Shown here: in pieces, positions 4,532-43,885 of the stretch
How positions within the stretch are numbered: position 1 is the first letter of the stretch
Layout of the letters: each line of letters opens with the position of its first letter
IMG/VR virus record: IMGVR_UViG_646206259_000004
Length of the DNA stretch: 45,219 nucleotides
Reading direction: 5' to 3' (one strand)
Source: a virus
Taxonomy: Duplodnaviria; Heunggongvirae; Uroviricota; Caudoviricetes
Notes under the pieces: model-generated
The model's input: only the letters and a program-made list of their open reading frames with translations
Databases searched by the model: none
Told to the model about the DNA's origin: nothing
Translations under genes and position numbers: made by a program

Positions 4532-4589
4532 AAAAAGGGCGGCAGAGCAGTCACGGAGTAAAACTGATACCGCCAAACGTCACCAGAAA
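4532..4589 (-). ncRNA. dicF: DicF small RNA
   Basis: Reverse complement reads TTTCTGGTGACGTTTGGCGGTATCAGTTTTACTCCGTGACTGCTCTGCCGCCCTTTTT, recognised as DicF including its GC hairpin and U-run terminator; sits between the ydfC-like gene and dicB. Confidence 0.75.
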
Positions 4590-8874: not shown

Positions 8875-9897
8875 ATGCCCTGTATTTCGCTGTGGTATAA
8901 TAGTTGCGCAATTGATACAAGGGAGCGTTACATCGTGAAAATTGTTTTCGAGGTTAATGGAAAGAAAGTTCCACTAAAATCTTTAAAATACATAAGCAAA
9001 AAAGATCAACTCGAAGTAATGAAAAACTGGTTCTTTGAAAACTTTGAAGATCCGGCAAATGCTTGTCCGTATGAAAGTAGAGAAGGTGGCTATGCTTACA
9101 TATATGGCGGGCCGTATGATGCGAGCGAAGAACTACAATCCATCTTCGGTCAATATGTTAAATCTGAGTATATTGAGGAATTAGTAGATGAATTACAAAC
9201 ACAATGTTTTGACTGGTCTGGAAACTCAAATAATATAGATGATTGGTACGATGATGATATCTACGACGCTGTAACGTCTTCCGGTAATCCGTATTTAAAA
9301 TTCATTGATAATATCGATAAAATAAAAAAACTTGCAAAAGATAAAACTGAACAACAGCAAAAAAACCACTTGCTTAGTTTGCTCTACACGAATGTTATTA
9401 CAGCTTTGGAAACGCTTTATGTTGAGCTATTCATTAATTCTATAGAGAAAGATGATGTCTACATAGCCAATTGTATAGAAAAAGGTAAGACTGAATTTAA
9501 AGTAAGCAAAGATATTGCTGCGTTGCCTTTCAAGGGTGAACCCATCGAGAAAATTAGGGGAGAGCTAATCAGGTCAATCAAGGAACACTTGATCAGTGCA
9601 AGCTGGCATAGCACTAAAAAGGTAATCGACCGCTATGAAGCTACATTCGATATAAAAGTACAAAAAGACTGTCCGATAGAAGCTATTGAATTGGCAACCC
9701 TCAATCGAAATCACTTAGTGCATCGTGGTGGAAAGGATAAAGAAGGGAACCTCGTAGTGATTACAGACCAGGATCTTGAAACGCTGATTGAAAATGCATC
9801 GAACCTGGCAATTATGCTCTACAACAGTTTAAATGTAGCAACGAATAAAACCACCATTTTGCAACCAGATGACAAACCGTTCATTCATGAATTTTAA
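8875..9897 (+). CDS. Hypothetical protein, gene A of AT-rich cassette (possible HEPN-like C-terminal region)
   Basis: ATG at 8875 six nt after AGGAGG; alternative in-frame GTG at 8935 downstream of an extended -10-like TGGTATAAT (8892-8900). Strongly AT-rich codon usage unlike flanking genes. C-terminal LNRNHLVHRGG fits an Rx4H HEPN-like motif (by eye only). Confidence 0.6.
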   Translation: MPCISLWYNSCAIDTRERYIVKIVFEVNGKKVPLKSLKYISKKDQLEVMKNWFFENFEDPANACPYESREGGYAYIYGGPYDASEELQSIFGQYVKSEYIEELVDELQTQCFDWSGNSNNIDDWYDDDIYDAVTSSGNPYLKFIDNIDKIKKLAKDKTEQQQKNHLLSLLYTNVITALETLYVELFINSIEKDDVYIANCIEKGKTEFKVSKDIAALPFKGEPIEKIRGELIRSIKEHLISASWHSTKKVIDRYEATFDIKVQKDCPIEAIELATLNRNHLVHRGGKDKEGNLVVITDQDLETLIENASNLAIMLYNSLNVATNKTTILQPDDKPFIHEF

Positions 9898-9912: not shown

Positions 9913-10914
9913 ATGGATATTCGCACACGAAAGACAAAATTTTTAGAGTCGTTAGATTCAACTGAAGTGATACGCAAAGCAGTAAGTCTCGCTATAGATT
10001 GCATTATTGATAATCATAATAGTAATGAAGATACCCCCTTAGTTATTACCAGCTATGATGATCTCTGTAGAATCCAGGTGCTAAATTATGTACAGGAGTT
10101 TTGCGAAGCTGCATTCCCTGATATGGATGAATATTACTTTAGTCCTAACATACTTCGCATCAACGGCAAGACTAGTGAAGAAGCTTGTATTAACTTAATT
10201 AAACTCTTAAGAAGTACAAAAGGCATGCTATTCTGGTCCGATGCCCCATCGTGGTTCGCTAGCCTCCCCGACGGATTATTCCATGTTGTTAACATTGATC
10301 AAAAAATCGTTACTCGCGGCCTTAATAAGAAAAACTCTAAGCCGACAATAATCAATAAAGATTACAGTGTAGATACACTACTATCAGAGCTATTTTTGAA
10401 TGGCGCACACATGGAGCAACCCAACGTACACAACGTTTCTGAGGGAAACATGAAGTTCTATGATGAATGCCATGCTGGATTAATCAGACCAATACCCGCT
10501 CCAATAGGCGCGTCATACGATGAAGAGATCACAATTAATTCTCCAGATTGGCAAAAGCTCGCGTGTGTAGCTTTACGCCGCTATCAGTCGAAGGAATGTC
10601 ATGACGGAATGCAATGGGATACAACCGATCATGGTTGGACTGATGTAATCGCGTATCCATTCGTCGAAGAAATACAATCAATGGATAATAGTGGTTATCG
10701 ACAATGTTTAGTTGGGCTGGTCACAATAAACAATTCAAATGCAAATTCTCCGTACCTATCTACCGTTTGGATACATCCATTTTATCGCAGGAGAGGGTTA
10801 TTAAGTAAGTTATGGCCAAAATTACAAGAGTTATATGGAAGTAACTTCGAAATTGAGCGACCTAATGAAAATATGAAAGCATTTCTGAAAAGTGCGAAAC
10901 ACGCAGATTACTAA
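9913..10914 (+). CDS. Hypothetical protein, gene B of AT-rich cassette (possible GNAT-like C-terminal fold)
   Basis: 333 aa ORF 15 nt downstream of gene A, same strand and AT-rich composition; C-terminal VWIHPFYRRRGLLSKLW resembles GNAT motif A (by eye only). Confidence 0.6.
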   Translation: MDIRTRKTKFLESLDSTEVIRKAVSLAIDCIIDNHNSNEDTPLVITSYDDLCRIQVLNYVQEFCEAAFPDMDEYYFSPNILRINGKTSEEACINLIKLLRSTKGMLFWSDAPSWFASLPDGLFHVVNIDQKIVTRGLNKKNSKPTIINKDYSVDTLLSELFLNGAHMEQPNVHNVSEGNMKFYDECHAGLIRPIPAPIGASYDEEITINSPDWQKLACVALRRYQSKECHDGMQWDTTDHGWTDVIAYPFVEEIQSMDNSGYRQCLVGLVTINNSNANSPYLSTVWIHPFYRRRGLLSKLWPKLQELYGSNFEIERPNENMKAFLKSAKHADY

Positions 10915-11230
10915 TTTATGAATCAGTCTGTGGAGTTAGGGTTGGTGTCAACAAGTAGGGTAAGAGCCTCAACGTGATGCTATGCCGACCTGCTCCCTGA
11001 GAATTCACACAGAAGGCTGCTAGCAATGTCTGCAGATCGCTCAAAGCGGACTAGAAGGTTAGCTTGCGTCGGACTTGGCGTATTTAAAGAAGTGCTGGTG
11101 GTGACTGGTTGTTGTGTTCCATTTCTACAGAACAAAATCACAGAAACTATACCCAATAGTTATATTGAATCAATGATGAGACAGCCTCATATTTATCAGA
11201 ACTGGTGTACGTCCAATACAGGAGGTTGTC

Positions 11231-11320
11231 GTGCTGGTTCTCAAATGTGCGCTAGCTATTGCGGCTGTAATGGCAATTTATTGTCTTGCTGTTGTTCTTA
11301 TGGATCGCCTTTCTGATTGA
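11231..11320 (+). CDS. Candidate small hydrophobic peptide (29 aa)
   Basis: GTG start 5 nt after a perfect AGGAGG; VLVLKCALAIAAVMAIYCLAVVLMDRLSD is a single predicted transmembrane helix; overlaps the 3' end of the 96 aa Cys-rich ORF in another frame. Confidence 0.3.
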   Translation: MLVLKCALAIAAVMAIYCLAVVLMDRLSD

Positions 11321-11474
11321 TTTTATATTGGCGAGGTGACGGGAGTTAAGTAGAATTGCTGCGGGTGCTTGAGGCTATCTGCCTCAGGCATGAACACCAA
11401 AGGCAGATAGAGAAAAGCCCCAGTTAATATTACGCGTCCTGCAAGACGCTTAACATTAATCTGAGGCTCAATCT

Positions 11475-11687
11475 ATGAACGGCAAATCTAGGTTAGCCTC
11501 TTACGTGCCGAAAGGCAAGGAGAAGCAGGCTATGAAGCAGCAAAAGGCGATGTTAATCGCCCTGATCGTCATCTGTTTAACCGTCATAGTGACGGCACTG
11601 GTAACGAGGAAAGACCTCTGCGAGGTACGAATCCGAACCGGCCAGACGGAGGTCGCTGTCTTCACAGTTTACGAACCTGAGGAGTAA
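11475..11687 (+). CDS. mok: Mok-like reading frame (N-terminally extended Hok frame)
   Basis: 70 aa ORF containing Hok in frame, as in mokC/hokC loci. Confidence 0.55.
   Translation: MNGKSRLASYVPKGKEKQAMKQQKAMLIALIVICLTVIVTALVTRKDLCEVRIRTGQTEVAVFTVYEPEE
11532..11687 (+). CDS. hok: Hok/Gef family type I toxin
   Basis: 51 aa MKQQKAMLIALIVICLTVIVTALVTRKDLCEVRIRTGQTEVAVFTVYEPEE, a near-match to the Hok/Gef/RelF family; mRNA-like context with upstream inverted repeats and a downstream fold-back/terminator. Confidence 0.85.
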   Translation: MKQQKAMLIALIVICLTVIVTALVTRKDLCEVRIRTGQTEVAVFTVYEPEE

Positions 11688-11755
11688 GAGACCCGGCGAG
11701 GGAGAAATCCCTCGCCACCTCTGATGTGTCAGGCATCCTCAACGCACCCGCACGT

Positions 11756-11782
11756 AACCCGCTTCGGCGGGTTTTGTTTTTT
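11756..11782 (+). terminator. Intrinsic terminator / fbi-like 3' hairpin of the hok mRNA
   Basis: AACCCGCTTCGGCGGGTTTTGTTTTTT: GC stem with short loop followed by a T-run. Confidence 0.6.
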
Positions 11783-11854
11783 CCTGGCATTCTGGTTTAC
11801 AATTCGCACGCCAGCCTGAACAACTGGCACCTGCTGCGCCAGCAGAGACAACCG

Positions 11855-16057: not shown

Positions 16058-16133
16058 GGCCCTTTAGCTCAGTGGTGAGAGCGAGCGACTCATAATCGCC
16101 AGGTCGCTGGTTCAAATCCAGCAAGGGCCACCA
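16058..16133 (+). tRNA. ileZ: tRNA with CAU anticodon (Ile2/lysidine type or Met; ileZ-like)
   Basis: Hand-folded cloverleaf: acceptor GGCCCTT/AAGGGCC, D-arm GCTC/GAGC, anticodon loop CTCATAA, T-loop TTCAAAT, 3' CCA encoded. Confidence 0.75.
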
Positions 16134-16140
16134 TCACATA

Positions 16141-16217
16141 CCGCCATTAGCTCATCAGGAAAGAGCGCCAGCCTTCGAAGCTGGTTGCGCGGAGTTCGGG
16201 TCCCCGAAGGCGGTCCA
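16141..16217 (+). tRNA. argN: tRNA-Arg (UCG anticodon; argN-like), atypical stems
   Basis: Cloverleaf folds with anticodon loop CTTCGAA and T-loop TTCGGGT, but with one mismatch each in the acceptor and T stems; needs tRNAscan confirmation. Confidence 0.5.
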
Positions 16218-16230
16218 TTATCTGTATCCT

Positions 16231-16307
16231 GCGTTGTTAGCTCAGCCGGACAGAGCAATTGCCTTCTAAGCAATCGGTCACTGGTTCGAATCCAGTACAA
16301 CGCGCCA
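16231..16307 (+). tRNA. argO: tRNA-Arg (UCU anticodon; argO-like)
   Basis: Acceptor GCGTTGT/ACAACGC, anticodon loop CTTCTAA, T-loop TTCGAAT, 3' CCA encoded. Confidence 0.75.
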
Positions 16308-16352: not shown

Positions 16353-16566
16353 CTCACAATTCAGGCGGTTGACTGTTGTCTGGTTTGCGGGGAGTTTGTT
16401 AAAAGAAACTGGCATGGTGAATCCCCCTGTGCGGAGGGGCAATCAGCGAGTAGGTATATGGGATAATCGCGGATTCAGGTGCTGGTACTGAATTCACCGG
16501 GAGGCACCCGGCACCATGCAATGGCACATAGCGCCACTCTCCAGCCCCTCTCCGGAGGGGCTTTTC
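16353..16566 (+). repeat. Structured non-coding module, copy 1 (candidate sRNA with own promoter-like motifs and intrinsic terminator)
   Basis: CTCACAATTCAG..GTTGAC...GGTGAATCCCCCTGTGCGGAGGGGC...(T)ATAAT...CACCGGGAGGCACCCGGCACCATG...CCCCTCTCCGGAGGGG+T-run; shares these blocks with copy 2. Confidence 0.4.
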
Positions 16567-16820
16567 TGTGCCGGATACATCACAGTTTCTGGAACCTTAG
16601 GTACTACAGTATCAGTCAGGGTGCTATATTTTCAGATGTGATGAAAGCCTGTCAGCAGGCAGGGCGTATCGGAAATGACCCAGTAGAGAAAACGTTGACT
16701 CAGATACCGGTGCTGAGTTACCGGGAAACCGGCATCACATGACCGCTATCCTTCCAGGCCCATCCGCTCCGGTGGGCCTTTTTACTGCAGAAAACAGGTT
16801 CCCCGTTAAATGCTATGTTG

Positions 16821-17055
16821 CTCACAATTCAGTAAGTTGACAGTTGCCTGTCAGACTGGGCATTTGTTAAAAAAATTTCGCATGGTGAATCCCCCTGAGC
16901 GGAGGGGCGACTGGTGACGGTATAATCTCTGATTATCAAAACGAGAATGACGCGGGTTTAGTGGCACCGGGCTGAACTCACCGGGAGGCACCCGGCACCA
17001 TGTGCATGATGATACAGATACGCGGCTTTAGCCCCTCTCCGGAGGGGTTTTCTTG
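16821..17055 (+). repeat. Structured non-coding module, copy 2
   Basis: Same conserved blocks as copy 1 in the same order, ending in the CCCCTCTCCGGAGGGG hairpin plus T-run; 468 bp downstream of copy 1. Confidence 0.4.
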
Positions 17056-17282
17056 TGGGCAAAAAAAGCCCGCGCTGGGAGACGCGGGCGGCAAGGAATA
17101 AACAATAAAACGTGAAGTAATATTTCAGCTGGCGAATAATACCCCATAGTAATCACTCTGCGCAACTGCGCGGTCTTTTTCGAATTGCGGGCTGTCGTCT
17201 CTCTTCTGCCATTGTCCTGTAACTTCCGGACTTCAGCCCGCTCCTTATTTTACTCACAATATTATCCCGGCCGGGAGGATTC

Positions 17283-21154: not shown

Positions 21155-21299
21155 GAGGTTGCCCTGTATTCAGTGTCGCTGATTTGTATTGTCTGAAGTT
21201 GTTTTTACGTTAGGTTGATGCAGATCAATTAATACGATACCTGCGTCATAATTGATTATTTGACGTGGTTTGATGGCCTCCACGCACGTTGTGATATGT

Positions 21300-21540
21300 A
21301 GATGATAATCATTATCGCTTTACGGGTCCTTTCCGGTGATCCGACAGGTTACGGGGCGGCGACCTCGCGGTTTTTCACTATTTATGAAAATTTTTCAGGG
21401 AAAATCGTGTCGGTACTTCTCGAATATAACTTTTTGTTTTTTTTAATATTGCATTCATAAATGTCCGACATGAAAGTGTCCGAAAATGCCTTTTTCTGGC
21501 GTTTTCATGTCGGGCCTTGTATTTGATAATGGGTTGTTCT
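21300..21540 (+). other. cos packaging site (cosQ-cosN-cosB); cosN 12-nt cohesive end at 21354-21365
   Basis: ...CCGGTGATCCGACAGGTTACG GGGCGGCGACCT CGCGGTTTTTCACTATTTATGAAAATTTT... closely matches the lambda genome right end and left end. Confidence 0.85.
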
Positions 21541-21576
21541 ATGAAGGTTAATAAAAAGAGGCTTGCCGAAATTTTT
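21541..21576 (+). CDS. nu1: Terminase small subunit Nu1, first 12 codons only (rest N-masked)
   Basis: MKVNKKRLAEIF vs lambda Nu1 MEVNKKQLADIF; lies at the lambda-like distance from cosN. Confidence 0.7.
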
Positions 21577-23117
21577 NNNNNNNNNNNNNNNNNNNNNNNN
21601 NNNNNNNNNNNNNNNNNNNNNNNNNNNNNNNNNNNNNNNNNNNNNNNNNNNNNNNNNNNNNNNNNNNNNNNNNNNNNNNNNNNNNNNNNNNNNNNNNNNN
21701 NNNNNNNNNNNNNNNNNNNNNNNNNNNNNNNNNNNNNNNNNNNNNNNNNNNNNNNNNNNNNNNNNNNNNNNNNNNNNNNNNNNNNNNNNNNNNNNNNNNN
21801 NNNNNNNNNNNNNNNNNNNNNNNNNNNNNNNNNNNNNNNNNNNNNNNNNNNNNNNNNNNNNNNNNNNNNNNNNNNNNNNNNNNNNNNNNNNNNNNNNNNN
21901 NNNNNNNNNNNNNNNNNNNNNNNNNNNNNNNNNNNNNNNNNNNNNNNNNNNNNNNNNNNNNNNNNNNNNNNNNNNNNNNNNNNNNNNNNNNNNNNNNNNN
22001 NNNNNNNNNNNNNNNNNNNNNNNNNNNNNNNNNNNNNNNNNNNNNNNNNNNNNNNNNNNNNNNNNNNNNNNNNNNNNNNNNNNNNNNNNNNNNNNNNNNN
22101 NNNNNNNNNNNNNNNNNNNNNNNNNNNNNNNNNNNNNNNNNNNNNNNNNNNNNNNNNNNNNNNNNNNNNNNNNNNNNNNNNNNNNNNNNNNNNNNNNNNN
22201 NNNNNNNNNNNNNNNNNNNNNNNNNNNNNNNNNNNNNNNNNNNNNNNNNNNNNNNNNNNNNNNNNNNNNNNNNNNNNNNNNNNNNNNNNNNNNNNNNNNN
22301 NNNNNNNNNNNNNNNNNNNNNNNNNNNNNNNNNNNNNNNNNNNNNNNNNNNNNNNNNNNNNNNNNNNNNNNNNNNNNNNNNNNNNNNNNNNNNNNNNNNN
22401 NNNNNNNNNNNNNNNNNNNNNNNNNNNNNNNNNNNNNNNNNNNNNNNNNNNNNNNNNNNNNNNNNNNNNNNNNNNNNNNNNNNNNNNNNNNNNNNNNNNN
22501 NNNNNNNNNNNNNNNNNNNNNNNNNNNNNNNNNNNNNNNNNNNNNNNNNNNNNNNNNNNNNNNNNNNNNNNNNNNNNNNNNNNNNNNNNNNNNNNNNNNN
22601 NNNNNNNNNNNNNNNNNNNNNNNNNNNNNNNNNNNNNNNNNNNNNNNNNNNNNNNNNNNNNNNNNNNNNNNNNNNNNNNNNNNNNNNNNNNNNNNNNNNN
22701 NNNNNNNNNNNNNNNNNNNNNNNNNNNNNNNNNNNNNNNNNNNNNNNNNNNNNNNNNNNNNNNNNNNNNNNNNNNNNNNNNNNNNNNNNNNNNNNNNNNN
22801 NNNNNNNNNNNNNNNNNNNNNNNNNNNNNNNNNNNNNNNNNNNNNNNNNNNNNNNNNNNNNNNNNNNNNNNNNNNNNNNNNNNNNNNNNNNNNNNNNNNN
22901 NNNNNNNNNNNNNNNNNNNNNNNNNNNNNNNNNNNNNNNNNNNNNNNNNNNNNNNNNNNNNNNNNNNNNNNNNNNNNNNNNNNNNNNNNNNNNNNNNNNN
23001 NNNNNNNNNNNNNNNNNNNNNNNNNNNNNNNNNNNNNNNNNNNNNNNNNNNNNNNNNNNNNNNNNNNNNNNNNNNNNNNNNNNNNNNNNNNNNNNNNNNN
23101 NNNNNNNNNNNNNNNNA

Positions 23118-23213: not shown

Positions 23214-24766
23214 AACGAACGCCTGTCCTGATTGATGTGAACGGCGTTCCGCTTCGGGAGAGCCTCAGCTACACCGGTGGCGGTGCAGGATTTGGCGGGC
23301 AAATGGCAGAGTGGTTGCCACCCTCGCAGAGTGCCGATGCGGCCCTGCTGCCCGCGTTGCGTCTGGGGAATGCCCGTGCAGATGATCTGGTGCGCAATAA
23401 CGGAATAGCGGCCAATGCGGTGGCCCTGCATAAGGATCACATTGTCGGGCATATGTTTCTGATTAGCTACCGTCCGAACTGGCGCTGGCTGGGGATGCGG
23501 GAGACCGCGGCAAAAAGTTTTGTCGATGAGGTGGAGGCGGCCTGGTCAGAATACGCAGAAGGGATGTTTGGTGAGATCGACGTGGAAGGGAAACGCACGT
23601 TTACGGAATTTATCCGTGAAGGTGTGGGCGTTCATGCGTTTAACGGCGAAATCTTTGTGCAGCCGGTCTGGGATACGGAGAGTACGCAACTGTTTCGTAC
23701 GCGTTTTAAAGCCGTGAGTCCGAAACGGGTGGACACGCCAGGACACGGTATCGGGAACCGTTTTCTGCGGGCCGGTGTGGAGGTTGATCGATATGGCCGT
23801 GCCGTTGCGTACCATATCTGTGAGGATGATTTTCCTCGCTCCGGGAGTGGACGATGGGAACGGATCCCGCGTGAACTACCCACCGGGCGTCCGGCCATGC
23901 TGCATATTTTCGAGCCGGTGGAGGACGGGCAGACCCGTGGAGCCAATCAGTTTTACAGCGTTATGGAACGGCTGAAGATGCTCGATTCCCTGCAGGCAAC
24001 ACAGCTTCAGTCGGCCATAGTGAAGGCGATGTATGCAGCGACGATTGAAAGTGACCTTGATACCGAAAAGGCCTTTGAATATATCGCCGGTGCGCCGCAG
24101 GGGCAGAAGGATAATCCGCTTATTAATATTCTGGATAAGTTCTCCACCTGGTATGACACGAATAGCGTGACGCTGGGCGGTGTCAAAATTCCGCACCTTT
24201 TCCCCGGTGATGATCTGAAACTTCAGACCGCGCAGGATTCAGACAATGGATTTTCGGCGCTTGAACAGGCGCTGCTGCGGTATATCGCCGCCGGTCTTGG
24301 CGTTTCCTACGAACAGTTGTCCCGTGATTACTCGAAGGTCAGTTACTCAAGTGCCCGCGCATCCGCCAATGAGTCGTGGCGCTATTTTATGGGGCGGCGA
24401 AAATTTATTGCGTCCCGGCTGGCCACGCAGATGTTTTCCTGCTGGCTGGAAGAGGCACTTCTTCGGGGGATTATTCGTCCGCCACGGGCACGGTTTGATT
24501 TTTATCAGGCGCGATCAGCCTGGTCACGGGCTGAGTGGATTGGAGCCGGAAGAATGGCCATTGACGGGCTCAAGGAGGTTCAGGAATCAGTGATGCGCAT
24601 TGAGGCCGGACTGAGCACGTATGAGAAAGAGCTGGCGCTGATGGGCGAGGATTATCAGGACATTTTCCGCCAGCAGGTCAGGGAATCTGCAGAGCGGGAA
24701 AAAGCCGGACTCTCACGTCCGGTGTGGATAGCGCAGGCGTATCAGCAGCAGATAGCGGAGAGTCGC
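23210..24766 (+). CDS. B: Portal protein B (3' end N-masked)
   Basis: MKRTPVLIDVNGVPLRESLSYTGGGAGFGGQMAEWLPP... closely resembles lambda gpB; runs into the mask at 24767. Confidence 0.9.
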
Positions 24767-25934
24767 NNNNNNNNNNNNNNNNNNNNNNNNNNNNNNNNNN
24801 NNNNNNNNNNNNNNNNNNNNNNNNNNNNNNNNNNNNNNNNNNNNNNNNNNNNNNNNNNNNNNNNNNNNNNNNNNNNNNNNNNNNNNNNNNNNNNNNNNNN
24901 NNNNNNNNNNNNNNNNNNNNNNNNNNNNNNNNNNNNNNNNNNNNNNNNNNNNNNNNNNNNNNNNNNNNNNNNNNNNNNNNNNNNNNNNNNNNNNNNNNNN
25001 NNNNNNNNNNNNNNNNNNNNNNNNNNNNNNNNNNNNNNNNNNNNNNNNNNNNNNNNNNNNNNNNNNNNNNNNNNNNNNNNNNNNNNNNNNNNNNNNNNNN
25101 NNNNNNNNNNNNNNNNNNNNNNNNNNNNNNNNNNNNNNNNNNNNNNNNNNNNNNNNNNNNNNNNNNNNNNNNNNNNNNNNNNNNNNNNNNNNNNNNNNNN
25201 NNNNNNNNNNNNNNNNNNNNNNNNNNNNNNNNNNNNNNNNNNNNNNNNNNNNNNNNNNNNNNNNNNNNNNNNNNNNNNNNNNNNNNNNNNNNNNNNNNNN
25301 NNNNNNNNNNNNNNNNNNNNNNNNNNNNNNNNNNNNNNNNNNNNNNNNNNNNNNNNNNNNNNNNNNNNNNNNNNNNNNNNNNNNNNNNNNNNNNNNNNNN
25401 NNNNNNNNNNNNNNNNNNNNNNNNNNNNNNNNNNNNNNNNNNNNNNNNNNNNNNNNNNNNNNNNNNNNNNNNNNNNNNNNNNNNNNNNNNNNNNNNNNNN
25501 NNNNNNNNNNNNNNNNNNNNNNNNNNNNNNNNNNNNNNNNNNNNNNNNNNNNNNNNNNNNNNNNNNNNNNNNNNNNNNNNNNNNNNNNNNNNNNNNNNNN
25601 NNNNNNNNNNNNNNNNNNNNNNNNNNNNNNNNNNNNNNNNNNNNNNNNNNNNNNNNNNNNNNNNNNNNNNNNNNNNNNNNNNNNNNNNNNNNNNNNNNNN
25701 NNNNNNNNNNNNNNNNNNNNNNNNNNNNNNNNNNNNNNNNNNNNNNNNNNNNNNNNNNNNNNNNNNNNNNNNNNNNNNNNNNNNNNNNNNNNNNNNNNNN
25801 NNNNNNNNNNNNNNNNNNNNNNNNNNNNNNNNNNNNNNNNNNNNNNNNNNNNNNNNNNNNNNNNNNNNNNNNNNNNNNNNNNNNNNNNNNNNNNNNNNNN
25901 NNNNNNNNNNNNNNNNNNNNNNNNNNNNNNNNNT

Positions 25935-26186
25935 TCTGCAACACCGGCTCTGACGCCCCTGATGCTGGATGAAGCCACCGGGAAACTGGTGGTCTGGGAT
26001 GGACAGAAAGCCGGTAGTGCGGTTGGCATACTGGTACTGCCGCTTGAAGGCACAGAGACGGTGCTGACCTATTACAAGTCGGGGACCTTTGCGACGGAGG
26101 CAATCCGCTGGCCTGACAGTGTGGATGAACACAAAAAGGCAAATGCCTTTGCCGGCACAGCCCTGAGTCACGCGGCTCTGCCGTAA
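25935..26186 (+). CDS. D: Head decoration protein D, C-terminal part visible
   Basis: ...LMLDEATGKLVVWDGQKAGSAVGILVLP...TYYKSGTFATEAIRWPD...ANAFAGTA matches the lambda gpD C-terminal region. Confidence 0.85.
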   Translation, partial: SATPALTPLMLDEATGKLVVWDGQKAGSAVGILVLPLEGTETVLTYYKSGTFATEAIRWPDSVDEHKKANAFAGTALSHAALP

Positions 26187-26243
26187 CACGTTATCAGGCC
26201 ACCATGGTGACCTGACTGATTTCTGAATGAAAGGAACTGATTT

Positions 26244-27272
26244 ATGGGATTGTTTACGACCCGCCAGTTACTCGGTTATACCGAACAAAAAGTGAAATTC
26301 CGTGCGCTGTTTCTGGAGCTGTTTTTCCGCCGTACGGTGAATTTCCACACCGAAGAGGTGATGCTGGACAAAATTACCGGAAAAACGCCGGTGGCGGCCT
26401 ATGTCTCCCCGATCGTTGAAGGAAAAGTGCTTCGCCATCGCGGTGGTGAAACCCGCGTGTTACGTCCGGGCTACGTCAAGCCGAAACACGAATTTAATTA
26501 CCAGCAGGCGGTTGAGCGCCTTCCTGGTGAAGATCCGGCTCAGCTGAACGACCCGGCCTACCGTCGTCTGCGTATCATTACCGATAACCTCAAACAGGAA
26601 GAGCACGCCATTGTCCAGGTGGAAGAAATGCAGGCGGTGAATGCCGTGCTGTATGGCAAATACACCATGGAAGGGGATCAGTTTGATACTGTCGAGGTGG
26701 ATTTCGGGCGCTCTGAAGGAAATAACATTGAGCAGGCTGACGGTAAAAAATGGTCTGAGCAGGACCGTGATACGTTTGATCCGACGCATGATATTGACCT
26801 CTACTGCGATCAGGCCAGCGGCCTTGTGAATATCGCCATTATGGACGGTACGGTCTGGCGTCTGCTGAATGGCTTTAAGCTGTTCCGCGAAAAACTGGAT
26901 ACCCGTCGCGGCTCAAATTCACAACTCGAAACGGCAGTGAAAGATCTGGGCGCAGTGGTGTCCTTCAAGGGGTATTACGGCGATCTGGCCATTGTGGTGG
27001 CGAAAACGTCTTATGTGGCAGAGGACGGTACCGAAAAACGTTATCTGCCGGAGGGCATGCTGGTGTTGGGGAATACGGCGGCAGAGGGGATTCGTTGCTA
27101 TGGTGCCATTAAGGATGCACAGGCGTTGTCTGAAGGAGTGGTGGCTTCTTCCCGTTACCCGAAACACTGGCTGACCGTGGGCGATCCGTCCTGTGAATTC
27201 ACCATGACGCAGTCCGCTCCGCTGATGGTGCTGCCGGATCCGGATGAGTTTGTGGTGGTACAGGTGAAATAA
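26244..27272 (+). CDS. E: Major capsid protein E
   Basis: 342 aa; similar to lambda gpE over the full length (e.g. YVSPIV.G.V.R.RGG, RRGSNS.LETAVKDLG, FTM.QSAPLM.L.DPDEFV.VQ). Confidence 0.95.
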   Translation: MGLFTTRQLLGYTEQKVKFRALFLELFFRRTVNFHTEEVMLDKITGKTPVAAYVSPIVEGKVLRHRGGETRVLRPGYVKPKHEFNYQQAVERLPGEDPAQLNDPAYRRLRIITDNLKQEEHAIVQVEEMQAVNAVLYGKYTMEGDQFDTVEVDFGRSEGNNIEQADGKKWSEQDRDTFDPTHDIDLYCDQASGLVNIAIMDGTVWRLLNGFKLFREKLDTRRGSNSQLETAVKDLGAVVSFKGYYGDLAIVVAKTSYVAEDGTEKRYLPEGMLVLGNTAAEGIRCYGAIKDAQALSEGVVASSRYPKHWLTVGDPSCEFTMTQSAPLMVLPDPDEFVVVQVK

Positions 27273-43301: not shown

Positions 43302-43885
43302 TGGCATTCAGAATGAGTGAACAAGCACGGACCATAAAAATTTATAATCTGCTGGCCGGAACTAATGAATTTATTGGTGAAGGTGACGCATATATTCCGC
43401 CTCATACAGGTCTGCCAGCAAACAGTACCGATATTGCACCACCAGATATTCCTGCTGGCTTTGTGGCTGTTTTCAACAGTGATGAGGCATCGTGGCATCT
43501 CGTTGAAGACCATCGGGGTAAAACGGTTTATGACGTAGCGTCAGGGGACGAGTTATTTATTTCTGAACTCGGTCCGTTACCGGAAAATGTTACCTGGTTA
43601 TCGCCGGAAGGGGAGTTTCAGAAGTGGAACGGCACAGCCTGGGTGAAGGATACGGAAGCAGAAAAAATGTTCCGGATCCGGGAGGCGGAAGAAACAAAAA
43701 ACAACCTGATGCAGGTAGCCAGTGAGCATATTGCGCCGCTTCAGGATGCTGCAGATCTGGAAATTGCAACGGAGGAAGAAACCTCATTGCTGGAAGCCTG
43801 GAAAAAGTATCGGGTGTTGCTGAACCGTGTTGATACATCAACTGCACCTGATATTGAGTGGCCTACGAACCCTGTCAGGGAGTAA
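43301..43885 (+). CDS. tfa: Tail fibre assembly protein Tfa
   Basis: 194 aa, near-identical in pattern to lambda Tfa ([82 protein letters not shown]...). Confidence 0.95.

What the first reader, a model, noticed from the sequence alone, without database searches (positions are those of the whole stretch)
11400..11790. hok/mok type I toxin locus embedded in the prophage
A 51-aa Hok/Gef-family toxin with an in-frame Mok extension, upstream inverted repeats (GAGGCTATCTGCCTC ... GGCAGATAGAG) and a 3' fold-back/terminator hairpin. The antisense Sok RNA should be encoded on the minus strand across the mok start, but I cannot delimit it by eye. The locus may act as an addiction or abortive-infection module next to the AT-rich cassette.
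Basis: partly seen in the sequence, partly recalled or inferred. Interest (0 to 1): 0.45.

Follow-up and report, generated by a model that had tools for sequence, protein, structure and literature searches.

The report
Intact hok/mok/sok toxin-antitoxin in prophage
This is an ordinary, apparently intact copy of the long-known hok/sok "host-killing" toxin–antisense RNA module, carried by a lambda-like prophage that is found in identical form in many sequenced E. coli strains.

Summary
Window 11328–11783 holds a complete hok/mok/sok type I toxin-antitoxin locus. It has a 51-aa Hok (Pfam HOK_GEF, 78.6 bits), an in-frame 70-aa mok ORF, and a hok-leader match to Rfam RF01794 (113 bits, cut-off 59).

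The 5' tac and 3' fbi elements pair, and the pairing covaries across 22 loci. The ucb / mok-SD / dcb alternative pairings appear in folds of the full-length and 3'-trimmed mRNA. A terminator closes the locus.

I could delimit the antisense Sok gene: about 71 nt on the minus strand, 11483→~11413. Its promoter is -35 TTGCCT (11518–11513) and -10 TAACCT (11495–11490).

That promoter is identical to the promoter of sokW from Sakai prophage Sp5, which has been validated experimentally. The locus shows no sign of decay. It departs from family-conserved columns at 2 of 199 positions, and those two form a compensatory G-C→A-U pair.

The 501-bp stretch is 100% identical in S88, UM146, IHE3034 and other genomes, where it is annotated hokD. 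K-12 hokD is the same gene with its leader replaced by relBE.

Nothing here is new. The physiological role (lysis aid, prophage stabilisation or abortive infection) was not tested.

A side observation may deserve a look: a conserved, essentially unannotated 29-aa membrane-peptide ORF lies just upstream of the hok promoter.

The parts
11328..11356 (+). hok mRNA promoter: -35 TTGGCG (11328–11333), 17-nt spacer, -10 TAGAAT (11351–11356)
   Evidence: Promoter scan and coordinates. The same -10 and spacing occur in Sp5 hokW (A2). The Rfam leader match begins 7 nt downstream, at 11363.
11363..11783 (+). Full-length hok mRNA, about 420 nt (5' end inferred, 3' end at the terminator T-run)
   Evidence: RF01794 match 11363–11537, 113.3 bits. 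MFE -175.4 kcal/mol, z = -8.1. It aligns end to end with the R1-type and Sp5 loci.
11363..11374 (+). tac (translational activator element), GGGTGCTTGAGG. It pairs with fbi in the full-length mRNA and with ucb after 3' trimming.
   Evidence: Folds. 12 tac/fbi pairs are 88% paired across 22 loci; pair 4 is UA:13 / CG:7 / UG:2 with none unpaired; 0 of 500 shuffles reach the covariation score. The duplex is -21.5 kcal/mol and is the best partner of the 5' end within the mRNA; 13 of 2000 shuffles do as well.
11375..11410 (+).
   Evidence: MFE structures. It is the first helix of the RF01794 consensus.
11416..11421 (+). ucb / anti-SD, AGCCCC. It sequesters the mok SD in the full-length mRNA and is captured by tac in the trimmed mRNA.
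   Evidence: Pairs 11416–11419 with 11465–11468 in the full-length fold, and 11415–11421 with 11363–11370 in the trimmed fold. The sequence is invariant; the tac/ucb helix is 98.7% paired and the ucb/mok-SD helix 75% across 22 loci.
11413..11483 (-). Sok antisense RNA gene, about 71 nt: a short single-stranded 5' tail (9 unpaired nt in the predicted fold), a long hairpin (about 11469–11415) and a UUUU tail (11416–11413). The ends are inferred, not mapped.
   Evidence: Fold -32.5 kcal/mol, z = -6.9. The length equals the 71-nt sokW/hokW complementarity reported for Sp5 (PMC8621323). It covers the mok SD and start codon.
11490..11518 (-). Sok promoter: -35 TTGCCT (11518–11513), 17-nt spacer, -10 TAACCT (11495–11490)
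   Evidence: Coordinates. It aligns with R1 TTGCGC / TATCCT. It is identical to Sp5 sokW over this stretch. Primer YO-421 of PMC8621323 mutates exactly TAGGTTA (the -10 hexamer TAACCT plus one base) to make the 'pro-less' construct, and probe YO-597 is identical to the window. The consensus scan missed it because the -10 matches only 3 of 6 positions.
11463..11466 (+). mok Shine-Dalgarno, GAGG
   Evidence: Invariant in 22 loci. It lies 8 nt before ATG 11475. It pairs with ucb (full-length) or dcb (trimmed).
11475..11687 (+). mok ORF, 70 aa, in frame with hok and sharing its stop codon
   Evidence: ORF list. The exact 70-aa sequence occurs on more than 1000 contigs. PHROG 251 'MokW-like host killing', 110 bits. 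The R1-type mok is in frame with hok as well.
11495..11500 (+). dcb, AGCCTC. It pairs with the mok SD region in the trimmed mRNA, forming the Sok-target hairpin.
   Evidence: Trimmed fold: 11463–11468 with 11495–11500. 84% paired across 22 loci; the sequence is invariant.
11517..11522 (+). hok Shine-Dalgarno, AAGGAG, buried in a local hairpin with CCTCTTAC (11497–11504)
   Evidence: Fold. The helix is 85% paired across 22 loci.
11532..11687 (+). hok toxin ORF, 51 aa: MKQQKAMLIALIVICLTVIVTALVTRKDLCEVRIRTGQTEVAVFTVYEPEE
   Evidence: Pfam PF01848, 78.6 bits, covering profile positions 1–42 of 42. 50 of 51 residues match K-12 HokD (A46V). 47 of 51 match Sp5 HokW. PGAP annotates it hokD.
11695..11716 (+). 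3'-UTR hairpin, expected to be the protective 3' end of the trimmed mRNA
   Evidence: Fold. On A3, 5 of 10 pairs have compensatory changes and 0 of 500 shuffles reach the score. The window's only two departures from conserved columns (11699 G→A, 11712 C→T) are the two sides of one pair.
11737..11749 (+). fbi (fold-back inhibitory element), CCTCAACGCACCC, complementary to tac with one bulged C
11756..11783 (+). Intrinsic terminator of hok mRNA: AACCCGC-TTCG-GCGGGTT followed by TTGTTTTTT
   Evidence: Terminator scan. Present in K-12 hokD too. Sp5 hokW has a different 3' end.

Best explanation
Window 11328–11783 is an intact hok/mok/sok type I toxin-antitoxin locus of the hokD/hokW type, carried in the early-right region of a lambdoid prophage integrated at ompW.

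**Likely mechanism (the R1 paradigm)**
1. A weak promoter makes a stable hok mRNA of about 420 nt.
2. The 3' fbi element pairs with the 5' tac element. This locks a fold in which ucb (AGCCCC) hides the mok Shine-Dalgarno. The full-length RNA is then neither translated nor bound by Sok.
3. Slow 3' trimming removes fbi. tac then captures ucb, and the mok SD/start region refolds with dcb into the target hairpin.
4. Sok is a short-lived antisense RNA of about 71 nt, made from its own promoter inside mok. It pairs across the mok SD and AUG and blocks mok translation. Because hok translation is coupled to mok, hok is blocked too. The duplex is expected to be cut by RNase III.
5. When Sok synthesis stops or Sok is depleted, Mok and Hok are translated. 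Possible triggers are loss of the DNA, transcription shut-off by an infecting phage or, as shown for sokW, SOS/prophage induction. The 51-aa Hok then inserts in the inner membrane and depolarises and kills the cell.

**Shown here:** all sequence elements, their conservation and covariation, and the predicted two-state folding.

**Inferred from homologues:** transcription of both RNAs, processing, toxicity and the physiological trigger.

**Likely role in this prophage** (my rough weights):
- accelerating lysis and release after induction, 0.4
- prophage stabilisation, 0.25
- abortive infection, 0.2
- no benefit to the host (selfish element), 0.15
For: - **Toxin and mok:** Hok ORF with PF01848 at 78.6 bits. 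In-frame mok with a GAGG SD.
- **Leader:** RF01794 hit of 113.3 bits against a gathering score of 59. It lies on the hok-sense strand and ends at the hok ATG, as in 19 other hok loci.
- **Two-state folding:** the full-length MFE closes tac with fbi and pairs ucb with the mok SD. Truncation at 11736 switches to tac/ucb plus mok-SD/dcb. These are the two conformations described for R1 hok (PMC9841398).
- **Covariation:** tac/fbi covaries (UA:13, CG:7, UG:2 at pair 4; 0 of 500 shuffles). The 3' hairpin covaries. The switch helices are invariant: tac/ucb is 98.7% paired, mok-SD/dcb 83.7% and ucb/mok-SD 75%.
- **Sok candidate:** folds as a short single-stranded 5' tail, a long hairpin and UUUU, z = -6.9.
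- **Sok promoter:** aligns with R1's and is identical to that of Sp5 sokW. For sokW, a northern blot, promoter mutation and trans-complementation show antitoxin function (PMC8621323).
- **No decay:** only 2 of 199 conserved columns differ in the window, and they form a compensatory pair.
- **Toxicity of relatives:** HokW (47 of 51 identical) is toxic (PMC8621323). HokD is listed among previously characterised Hok toxins used as controls (bioRxiv 10.1101/2025.08.07.668861).
- **Distribution:** 100% identical in many ExPEC genomes. Related copies occur in 4741 of 5426 complete E. coli genomes.
Against: - No expression data exist for this copy. The Sok ends, hok processing, toxicity and Sok control are all inferred.
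- The Sok -10 (TAACCT) matches the consensus at only 3 of 6 positions and was not picked up by the generic promoter scan.
- Several chromosomal hok loci tested in the literature did not give post-segregational killing (summarised in bioRxiv 10.1101/2025.08.07.668861). An addiction phenotype therefore cannot be assumed.
- The tac/fbi duplex energy is only slightly better than two alternative partners (-21.5 against -20.4 and -20.3 kcal/mol).
- The switch helices are invariant, so they provide no covariation evidence.
Confidence: 0.9

Rival explanations
1. The locus is a decayed, silent relic, like the K-12 chromosomal hok loci. The ORF persists but the regulatory RNA elements or promoters no longer work, so it has no activity.
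For: K-12 hokD, 50 of 51 identical at protein level, has lost its whole leader to relBE. Chromosomal hok loci tested earlier did not mediate post-segregational killing. The Sok -10 is a weak consensus match.
Against: All elements are present and at family consensus. Only 2 of 199 conserved columns differ, and those two are compensatory. The promoters and leader are near-identical to the functional Sp5 hokW-sokW (PMC8621323). Among 125 related prophage copies, the Hok ORFs recovered are almost all full length.
Confidence: 0.05
2. hok is used mainly as a phage lysis accessory. It is transcribed by read-through from the early-right operon after induction. Sok plays only a minor part, so the module is not a true toxin-antitoxin pair in this context.
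For: hok has the same orientation as cro, the replication genes and Q. No convincing terminator lies between the upstream cargo genes and hok. In Sp5, HokW appears after mitomycin C and advances lysis.
Against: The locus has its own promoter, the complete Sok gene and the fold-back lock, all under conservation. In Sp5, hokW mRNA is already present before induction, and what changes is the disappearance of sokW. That is, control runs through Sok.
Confidence: 0.04
3. The match is a chance small ORF plus chance hairpins, with no hok/sok biology.
For: None beyond the general frequency of small ORFs and hairpins.
Against: Pfam E = 2.6e-22, Rfam E = 4e-25, covariation and thousands of conserved copies.
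Confidence: 0.01

Closest known systems
hokW-sokW of Sakai prophage Sp5 (E. coli O157:H7; Takada et al. 2021, PMC8621323)
   Same: About 95% nucleotide identity from the hok -10 through fbi. tac, ucb, the mok SD, dcb, the hok SD and the Sok promoter are identical. Both have a 70-aa in-frame mok and a 51-aa Hok (47 of 51 identical). Both are carried by a lambdoid prophage.
   Different: mok codons 2–6, which correspond to the Sok 5' tail and its target, differ at about 8 positions. Cross-inhibition between the two Sok RNAs is therefore doubtful. The Hok C-terminus differs (…FTVYEPEE against …FVDYESEK). The 3' end and terminator differ. Sp5 carries the locus at the right end of the prophage on the opposite strand to the late genes, whereas here it lies between the replication genes and Q.
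hokD (relF) of the Qin cryptic prophage, E. coli K-12
   Same: Identical DNA from about 11518 (just upstream of the hok SD) through the terminator. Hok is 50 of 51 identical (A46V). The synteny is the same: hok – DUF968 (ydfU) – Q.
   Different: In K-12 everything upstream (hok promoter, tac, ucb, the mok start, the Sok gene and Sok -10) is replaced by relBE, and rem follows hokD. The window has the complete leader and no rem. The window copy is the full version of what K-12 keeps as a fragment.
hok/sok (parB) of plasmid R1 and IncF plasmids
   Same: The same architecture element for element: promoter, tac, 5' hairpin, ucb, Sok hairpin, GAGG mok SD, in-frame mok, Sok -10/-35 inside mok, hok SD hairpin, fbi and terminator. 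The same two-state folding is predicted (PMC9841398).
   Different: Nucleotide similarity is low outside the conserved boxes. R1 departs from 55 of 199 family-conserved columns. The Sok hairpin is longer here. The tac/fbi sequences differ with compensation (GGGUGC/GCACCC against GGCGC/GCGCC). The R1 locus is plasmid-borne, with a proven post-segregational killing role.
Chromosomal hokA/B/C/E loci of Escherichia and hok loci of Kluyvera, Photorhabdus, Pantoea, Erwinia
   Same: The same Rfam leader family (86–133 bits) and the same conserved boxes.
   Different: They have different genomic contexts. Several are interrupted or truncated: L021 loses fbi and L043 lacks it.

Membership tests
[quoted passage not shown] | Small (about 50 aa) Hok/Gef toxin ORF matching Pfam PF01848, with an N-terminal hydrophobic helix | tested here: met
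   78.6 bits against a cut-off of 22, covering profile positions 1–42 of 42. The 51-aa ORF is intact.
[quoted passage not shown] | Overlapping mok reading frame starting upstream of hok, with its own SD (GAGG) | tested here: met
   ATG 11475 with GAGG 8 nt upstream; 70 aa, in frame. GAGG is invariant in 22 loci.
[quoted passage not shown] | hok mRNA leader with the conserved sequence and structure of Rfam RF01794 | tested here: met
   113.3 bits against a gathering score of 59, covering the full model 1–157.
[quoted passage not shown] | cis-encoded antisense Sok RNA across the mok SD/start: own promoter, single-stranded 5' tail, hairpin and U-tail | tested here: met
   Met at the sequence level only. 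The promoter is TTGCCT-17-TAACCT, identical to the validated sokW promoter. The 71-nt RNA folds as tail, hairpin and UUUU, z = -6.9.
[quoted passage not shown] | Long-range tac (5') – fbi (3') pairing that locks the full-length mRNA | tested here: met
   12 bp with one bulge in the MFE. 88% paired with compensatory changes across 22 loci. 13 of 2000 shuffles give as good a duplex.
[quoted passage not shown] | Alternative pairings: ucb/mok-SD (closed) against tac/ucb plus mok-SD/dcb (open) | tested here: met
   Predicted by folds of the full-length and truncated RNA. The helices are conserved: tac/ucb 98.7% paired, mok-SD/dcb 83.7% and ucb/mok-SD 75%. They are invariant, so there is no covariation evidence.
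[quoted passage not shown] | Sok RNA is actually expressed and is less stable than hok mRNA; the hok mRNA is 3'-processed | not testable with these tools
   Shown only for the homologues R1 hok/sok and Sp5 hokW-sokW (PMC9841398, PMC8621323).
[quoted passage not shown] | Hok kills or arrests cells, and Sok neutralises it | not testable with these tools
   HokW (47 of 51 identical) is shown to be toxic and is neutralised by sokW. K-12 HokD (50 of 51 identical) is listed among previously characterised Hok toxins used as controls.
hokD orthologue group (Qin-type lambdoid prophage hok) | Near-identical Hok protein and synteny with DUF968 (ydfU) and Q | tested here: met
   50 of 51 identical. DNA identical from 11518 to the terminator. 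The order hok – (279-nt ORF) – DUF968 – RusA – Q. PGAP name hokD.

The most novel reading that the evidence does not exclude
The hok/sok unit itself is not novel. The most novel reading left open concerns the sequence immediately upstream, a conserved and essentially unannotated 29-aa ORF at 11231–11320.

- **Sequence:** GTG start, AGGAGG SD, MLVLKCALAIAAVMAIYCLAVVLMDRLSD.
- **Proposal:** it is a genuine small inner-membrane protein gene of lambdoid phages. It marks the right-hand boundary of a hypervariable cargo (moron/defence) insertion site, and it could be a further small membrane-active toxin or a modulator of lysis.
- **Conservation:** intact in 124 of 125 copies.
- **Substitution pattern:** third-position-biased variation, with conservative amino-acid replacements.
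- **Independence from hok:** in about 15 phages it occurs without hok, with the sequence break right after its stop codon.
Probability: 0.3. Interest if true: 0.35.

Novelty: already known. Interest (0 to 1): 0.1.

Why it matters
It matters little beyond correct annotation.

- It shows that this prophage carries the complete, regulated form of the gene that K-12 keeps only as the leaderless hokD (relF) fragment.
- It gives exact coordinates for the unannotated Sok RNA and mok, which genome pipelines omit.
- For anyone studying this ExPEC prophage, the locus is a candidate modifier of lysis timing, prophage stability or phage exclusion.
- The hypervariable Sok-tail/target region explains how several hok/sok copies can coexist in one genome without cross-talk.

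Tried and rejected
1. **Rfam strand.** I first read the Rfam 'sok' hit as the Sok gene. It lies on the hok-sense strand and ends at the hok ATG in all 20 loci checked. The model therefore describes the hok leader, and Sok is its partial complement.
2. **Sub-threshold minus-strand hit.** An RF01794 hit at 11299–11421 (19.9 bits) was dismissed. I read it as an effect of the near-palindromic 5' hairpin.
3. **Promoter scan.** The generic scan does not list the Sok promoter because its -10 matches 3 of 6 positions. I assigned it instead by alignment to R1 and Sp5 and from the published promoter-mutant primers.
4. **Locating Sp5 hokW.** I looked for it in the gap between the methylase and the antirepressor and it is not there. 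It lies at the right end of Sp5, where RefSeq calls it 'regulatory protein MokC for HokC'.
5. **Decayed-locus hypothesis.** Rejected, because only 2 of 199 conserved columns differ and the two changes are compensatory.
6. **Link to the AT-rich cassette.** Not supported. The sequence upstream of the hok block falls into 42 different contexts among 111 phage loci. [quoted passage not shown]
7. **The 29-aa ORF.**
   - There are no Pfam, PHROG or PADLOC matches.
   - No paper contains the peptide.
   - It is not K-12 YnfS.
   - The promoter-like sites around it are poorly conserved.
8. **IsrK similarity.** The similarity of the hok 3' UTR to IsrK is below threshold (27.8 against 50 bits), and the IsrK paper does not mention hok.
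Full report
**1. What is there**

The stretch contains a 51-aa ORF at 11532–11687 and an in-frame 70-aa ORF starting at ATG 11475. The short ORF matches Pfam HOK_GEF over the whole profile, at 78.6 bits against a cut-off of 22.

A whole-window Rfam scan gives one RF01794 ('sok') match at 11363–11537, scoring 113.3 bits against a gathering score of 59. This hit is on the plus strand, the hok-sense strand, and ends at the hok ATG. The same holds for 19 other hok loci from Escherichia, Kluyvera, Photorhabdus, Pantoea, Citrobacter and Erwinia. The Rfam model therefore describes the hok mRNA leader. The real Sok RNA is the complement of part of it.

They form the first hairpin of that leader.

**2. 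Anatomy**

- **hok promoter and start.** TTGGCG-17-TAGAAT lies at 11328–11356. This places the hok mRNA start at about 11363, which is also where the Rfam model begins.
- **tac and fbi.** The first 12 nt (GGGTGCTTGAGG, tac) are complementary, with one bulge, to CCTCAACGCACCC at 11737–11749 (fbi).
- **Terminator.** It follows at 11756–11773 with a T-run.
- **mok and hok ribosome sites.** mok has the SD GAGG at 11463–11466. hok has AAGGAG at 11517–11522.
- **Sok promoter (minus strand).** The -35 is TTGCCT (11518–11513) and the -10 is TAACCT (11495–11490), with a 17-nt spacer. They align with TTGCGC and TATCCT of an R1-type plasmid locus.
- **Sok transcript.** Transcription from about 11483 to the UUUU at 11416–11413 gives an RNA of about 71 nt. 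It has a short single-stranded 5' tail (9 unpaired nt in the predicted fold) and a long hairpin. The fold energy is -32.5 kcal/mol with z = -6.9. The RNA covers the mok SD and start codon.

**3. Does the RNA switch exist here?**

The full-length mRNA (11363–11783) folds with z = -8.1. Its minimum-energy structure closes tac with fbi and pairs AGCC of ucb (AGCCCC, 11416–11421) with the mok SD region.

Removing the 3' end (fold of 11363–11736) changes the prediction. tac now pairs with ucb, and GAGGCT (11463–11468) pairs with AGCCTC (dcb, 11495–11500). This forms a hairpin whose loop holds the sequence complementary to the Sok 5' tail.

These are the closed (full-length) and open (truncated) conformations described for R1 hok (PMC9841398).

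I tested the helices on an alignment of 22 loci (A3).

| Helix | Result |
|---|---|
| tac/fbi (12 pairs) | 88% paired. Pair 4 is U-A in 13 loci, C-G in 7 and U-G in 2, never unpaired. No shuffle of 500 reaches the covariation score, and slid controls drop to 44–65% paired |
| 3'-UTR hairpin (11695–11716) | 5 of 10 pairs have compensatory changes |
| Switch helices | Sequence-invariant. tac/ucb 98.7% paired, mok-SD/dcb 83.7%, ucb/mok-SD 75%. Consistent with the model but no covariation evidence |

The tac/fbi duplex (-21.5 kcal/mol) is the best partner for the 5' end anywhere in the mRNA, but only narrowly. 13 of 2000 shuffles do as well.

**4. Is it decayed?**

No. Among 199 alignment columns that are at least 85% conserved, the window differs at two (11699 G→A and 11712 C→T). 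These are the two sides of one base pair in the 3' hairpin.

The leader identity profile shows invariant tac, ucb, GAGG, dcb/AGCCTCTTAC and GGCAAGGAG. The most variable stretch is 11469–11492, that is the spacer before the mok start plus mok codons 1–6. This is the Sok 5' tail and its target. That pattern fits a recognition region that diversifies so that paralogous Sok RNAs do not cross-react.

**5. Where it comes from and what is known**

The 501-bp query is 100% identical in S88, UM146, IHE3034, NU14, ATCC 11775 and others. Related copies occur in 4741 of 5426 complete E. coli genomes, with a median of 2 per genome. PGAP calls the ORF hokD.

In S88 the surrounding 45 kb is a lambdoid prophage next to ompW. 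It runs from int/xis through dicB and ydfABC, repressor/cro/YdaT, two AT-rich hypothetical genes, hok, DUF968, RusA, Q, three tRNAs, the lysis genes, and the head and tail genes.

The same position (replication genes – variable cargo – hok – rem/DUF968 – Q) is seen in the phages mEp460 and HannyBb. The same stretch also matches phages Tritos and Evi at 96–98% identity.

K-12 hokD in Qin is identical from about 11518 onward. Upstream of that point it is replaced by relBE, so K-12 holds a leaderless fragment of this locus.

The experimentally studied hokW-sokW of Sakai prophage Sp5 lies at the right end of that prophage (ECs_1245). It is about 95% identical from the -10 of the hok promoter to fbi, with an identical Sok promoter.

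Takada et al. (PMC8621323) reported the following:
- HokW is toxic.
- sokW RNA is detectable and neutralises HokW.
- Mutating the sokW -10 removes protection. Primer YO-421 changes exactly TAGGTTA, the -10 hexamer TAACCT plus one base.
- RNase III and Hfq contribute.
- After mitomycin C, sokW disappears and HokW accumulates in the inner membrane in a RecA-dependent way.
- Lysis is advanced and twice as many phages are released.
- sokW has 71 nt of complementarity to the hokW leader, matching the length I infer here.

A recent survey finds hok enriched in prophages (bioRxiv 10.1101/2025.08.07.668861). [quoted passage not shown]

**6. Mechanism and rivals**

The best explanation is an intact, Sok-controlled hok/mok/sok module working as in R1 and Sp5 (confidence 0.9).

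The sequence elements, their conservation and the two-state folding are shown here. Transcription, processing, toxicity and the trigger are inferred from homologues.

The physiological role is open:
- Help with lysis after induction has direct support in the closest homologue.
- Prophage stabilisation and abortive infection are plausible by analogy with plasmid hok/sok.

A decayed relic, a Sok-independent lysis accessory and a chance match are each unlikely, for the reasons given under rival explanations.

**7. Novelty**

The locus is already known. It belongs to a family characterised since the 1980s, it is annotated in hundreds of genomes, and it has a near-identical homologue that has been characterised experimentally. 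The only additions here are exact coordinates for mok, Sok and the RNA elements, which standard annotation omits.

**8. Seen in passing**

*The upstream block and the 29-aa ORF*
- A block of about 300 bp directly upstream of the hok promoter (about 11037–11340) is conserved in about 1700 E. coli genomes and has no annotated feature.
- It contains a 29-aa hydrophobic ORF (11231–11320, GTG start, AGGAGG SD).
- In 125 copies, mostly from IMG/VR, the ORF is intact in 124.
- Variable sites are biased to third codon positions (6, 5 and 11 at positions 1, 2 and 3).
- There are 11 synonymous and 12 mostly conservative non-synonymous codon changes.
- The ORF region is the best-conserved part of the block. 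Part of it was fixed by the search pattern, which inflates this.
- In about 15 phages the ORF is present without hok, with the sequence break right after its stop codon.
- One GenBank record calls it a hypothetical protein.

*The cargo site*
- Sequence further upstream falls into 42 contexts in 111 loci. Sequence downstream falls into 14 contexts in 100 loci. This marks a cargo hotspot.
- Here the cargo is an AT-rich pair of genes with weak HEPN-like and GNAT-like signals.

*Other items*
- A sub-threshold IsrK-like match in the hok 3' UTR.
- A UACG motif at the Tyr47 codon, of the kind reported to be edited by TadA in hok mRNAs.
- CRISPR repeats next to hok in Erwinia and Kalamiella.

Noticed in passing
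window 11231–11320 (+), SD AGGAGG 11221–11226: A conserved 29-aa hydrophobic ORF (MLVLKCALAIAAVMAIYCLAVVLMDRLSD, GTG start) ends 8 nt before the hok -35. It has no feature in RefSeq S88. It is intact in 124 of 125 copies, with variable sites at codon positions 1/2/3 of 6/5/11 and 11 synonymous against 12 mostly conservative changes. There are no Pfam, PHROG or PADLOC hits and no paper mentions it. One GenBank record (GCZ25347.1) calls it a hypothetical protein. About 15 phage contigs have it without hok, with the sequence break right after its stop codon.
   Followed up: partly
window ~11037–11340, and the sequence upstream of it: A block of about 300 bp with no annotated feature is conserved in about 1700 E. 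coli genomes directly upstream of hok. What lies further upstream is hypervariable: 42 contexts in 111 loci, including a 'deaminase' and other hypothetical genes. Downstream is far less varied (14 contexts, three of them dominant). This looks like the right boundary of a cargo/moron insertion hotspot in lambdoid phages.
   Followed up: partly
window 8935–9897 and 9913–10914 (+): An AT-rich two-gene cassette (GC 0.31–0.43, against about 0.55 in the flanks). The first protein has a sub-threshold HEPN/RES N-terminal domain hit and an RNHLVH (Rx4H-like) motif. The second has a sub-threshold GNAT hit and belongs to phrog_16994 (unknown function). Neither gives a significant PADLOC match (one marginal PglX hit for the first protein, E = 0.009). 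It is a possible defence or toxin cargo.
   Followed up: partly
window 11696–11777 (+): The hok 3' UTR (hairpin plus terminator) gives a sub-threshold match to Rfam IsrK, the Gifsy-1 prophage sRNA of Salmonella (27.8 bits against a gathering score of 50; E = 1.6e-4 in a 191-nt search). This could mean IsrK-type sRNAs and hok 3' ends share ancestry, or it could be only a shared hairpin-plus-terminator layout. The IsrK paper does not mention hok.
   Followed up: partly
window 11670–11673 (Tyr47 codon TAC followed by G; motif UUUACGAAC): The TACGAA motif at the penultimate Tyr codon is invariant in all 22 hok loci aligned, and it resembles the tRNA-Arg(ACG) anticodon loop. The literature reports TadA A-to-I editing (Tyr→Cys) at this kind of site in hokB, C, D and E mRNAs. 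Editing here would turn Y47 into Cys.
   Followed up: partly
window 11469–11492: The spacer before the mok start plus mok codons 1–6 (the Sok 5' tail and its target) form the most variable stretch of the otherwise highly conserved leader. It differs at about 8 positions from Sp5 hokW-sokW. This suggests diversification of Sok specificity between paralogous loci.
   Followed up: partly
window 4537–4588 (-); 16058–16304 (+); 16383–16573 and 16851–17060 (+); 43644–43842 (+): Other Rfam hits above the gathering score in the window: DicF sRNA; three tRNAs downstream of Q and a DNA methyltransferase gene (annotated Ile, Arg and Arg in S88); two copies of STnc100; and IS009.
   Followed up: no
L048 250–397 and L050 362–389 (Erwinia sp. 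CGal63, Kalamiella sp.): In these genomes the hok leader (RF01794, 131–133 bits) starts about 100 nt after CRISPR-DR4 repeats. The hok/sok locus therefore abuts a CRISPR array.
   Followed up: no
L006 35420–35632 (-) (Sakai Sp5): RefSeq for Sakai labels the experimentally studied mokW/hokW ORF as 'regulatory protein MokC for HokC'. PGAP labels the window-type gene 'hokD'. Names in this family follow protein similarity, not locus identity.
   Followed up: yes
L054 (S88 prophage) 21278–21812 and 24491–26418: In S88 the prophage that matches the window has a frameshifted lysozyme gene and a frameshifted large terminase gene, so that copy may be defective. I did not check whether the window copy carries the same frameshifts.
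   Followed up: no
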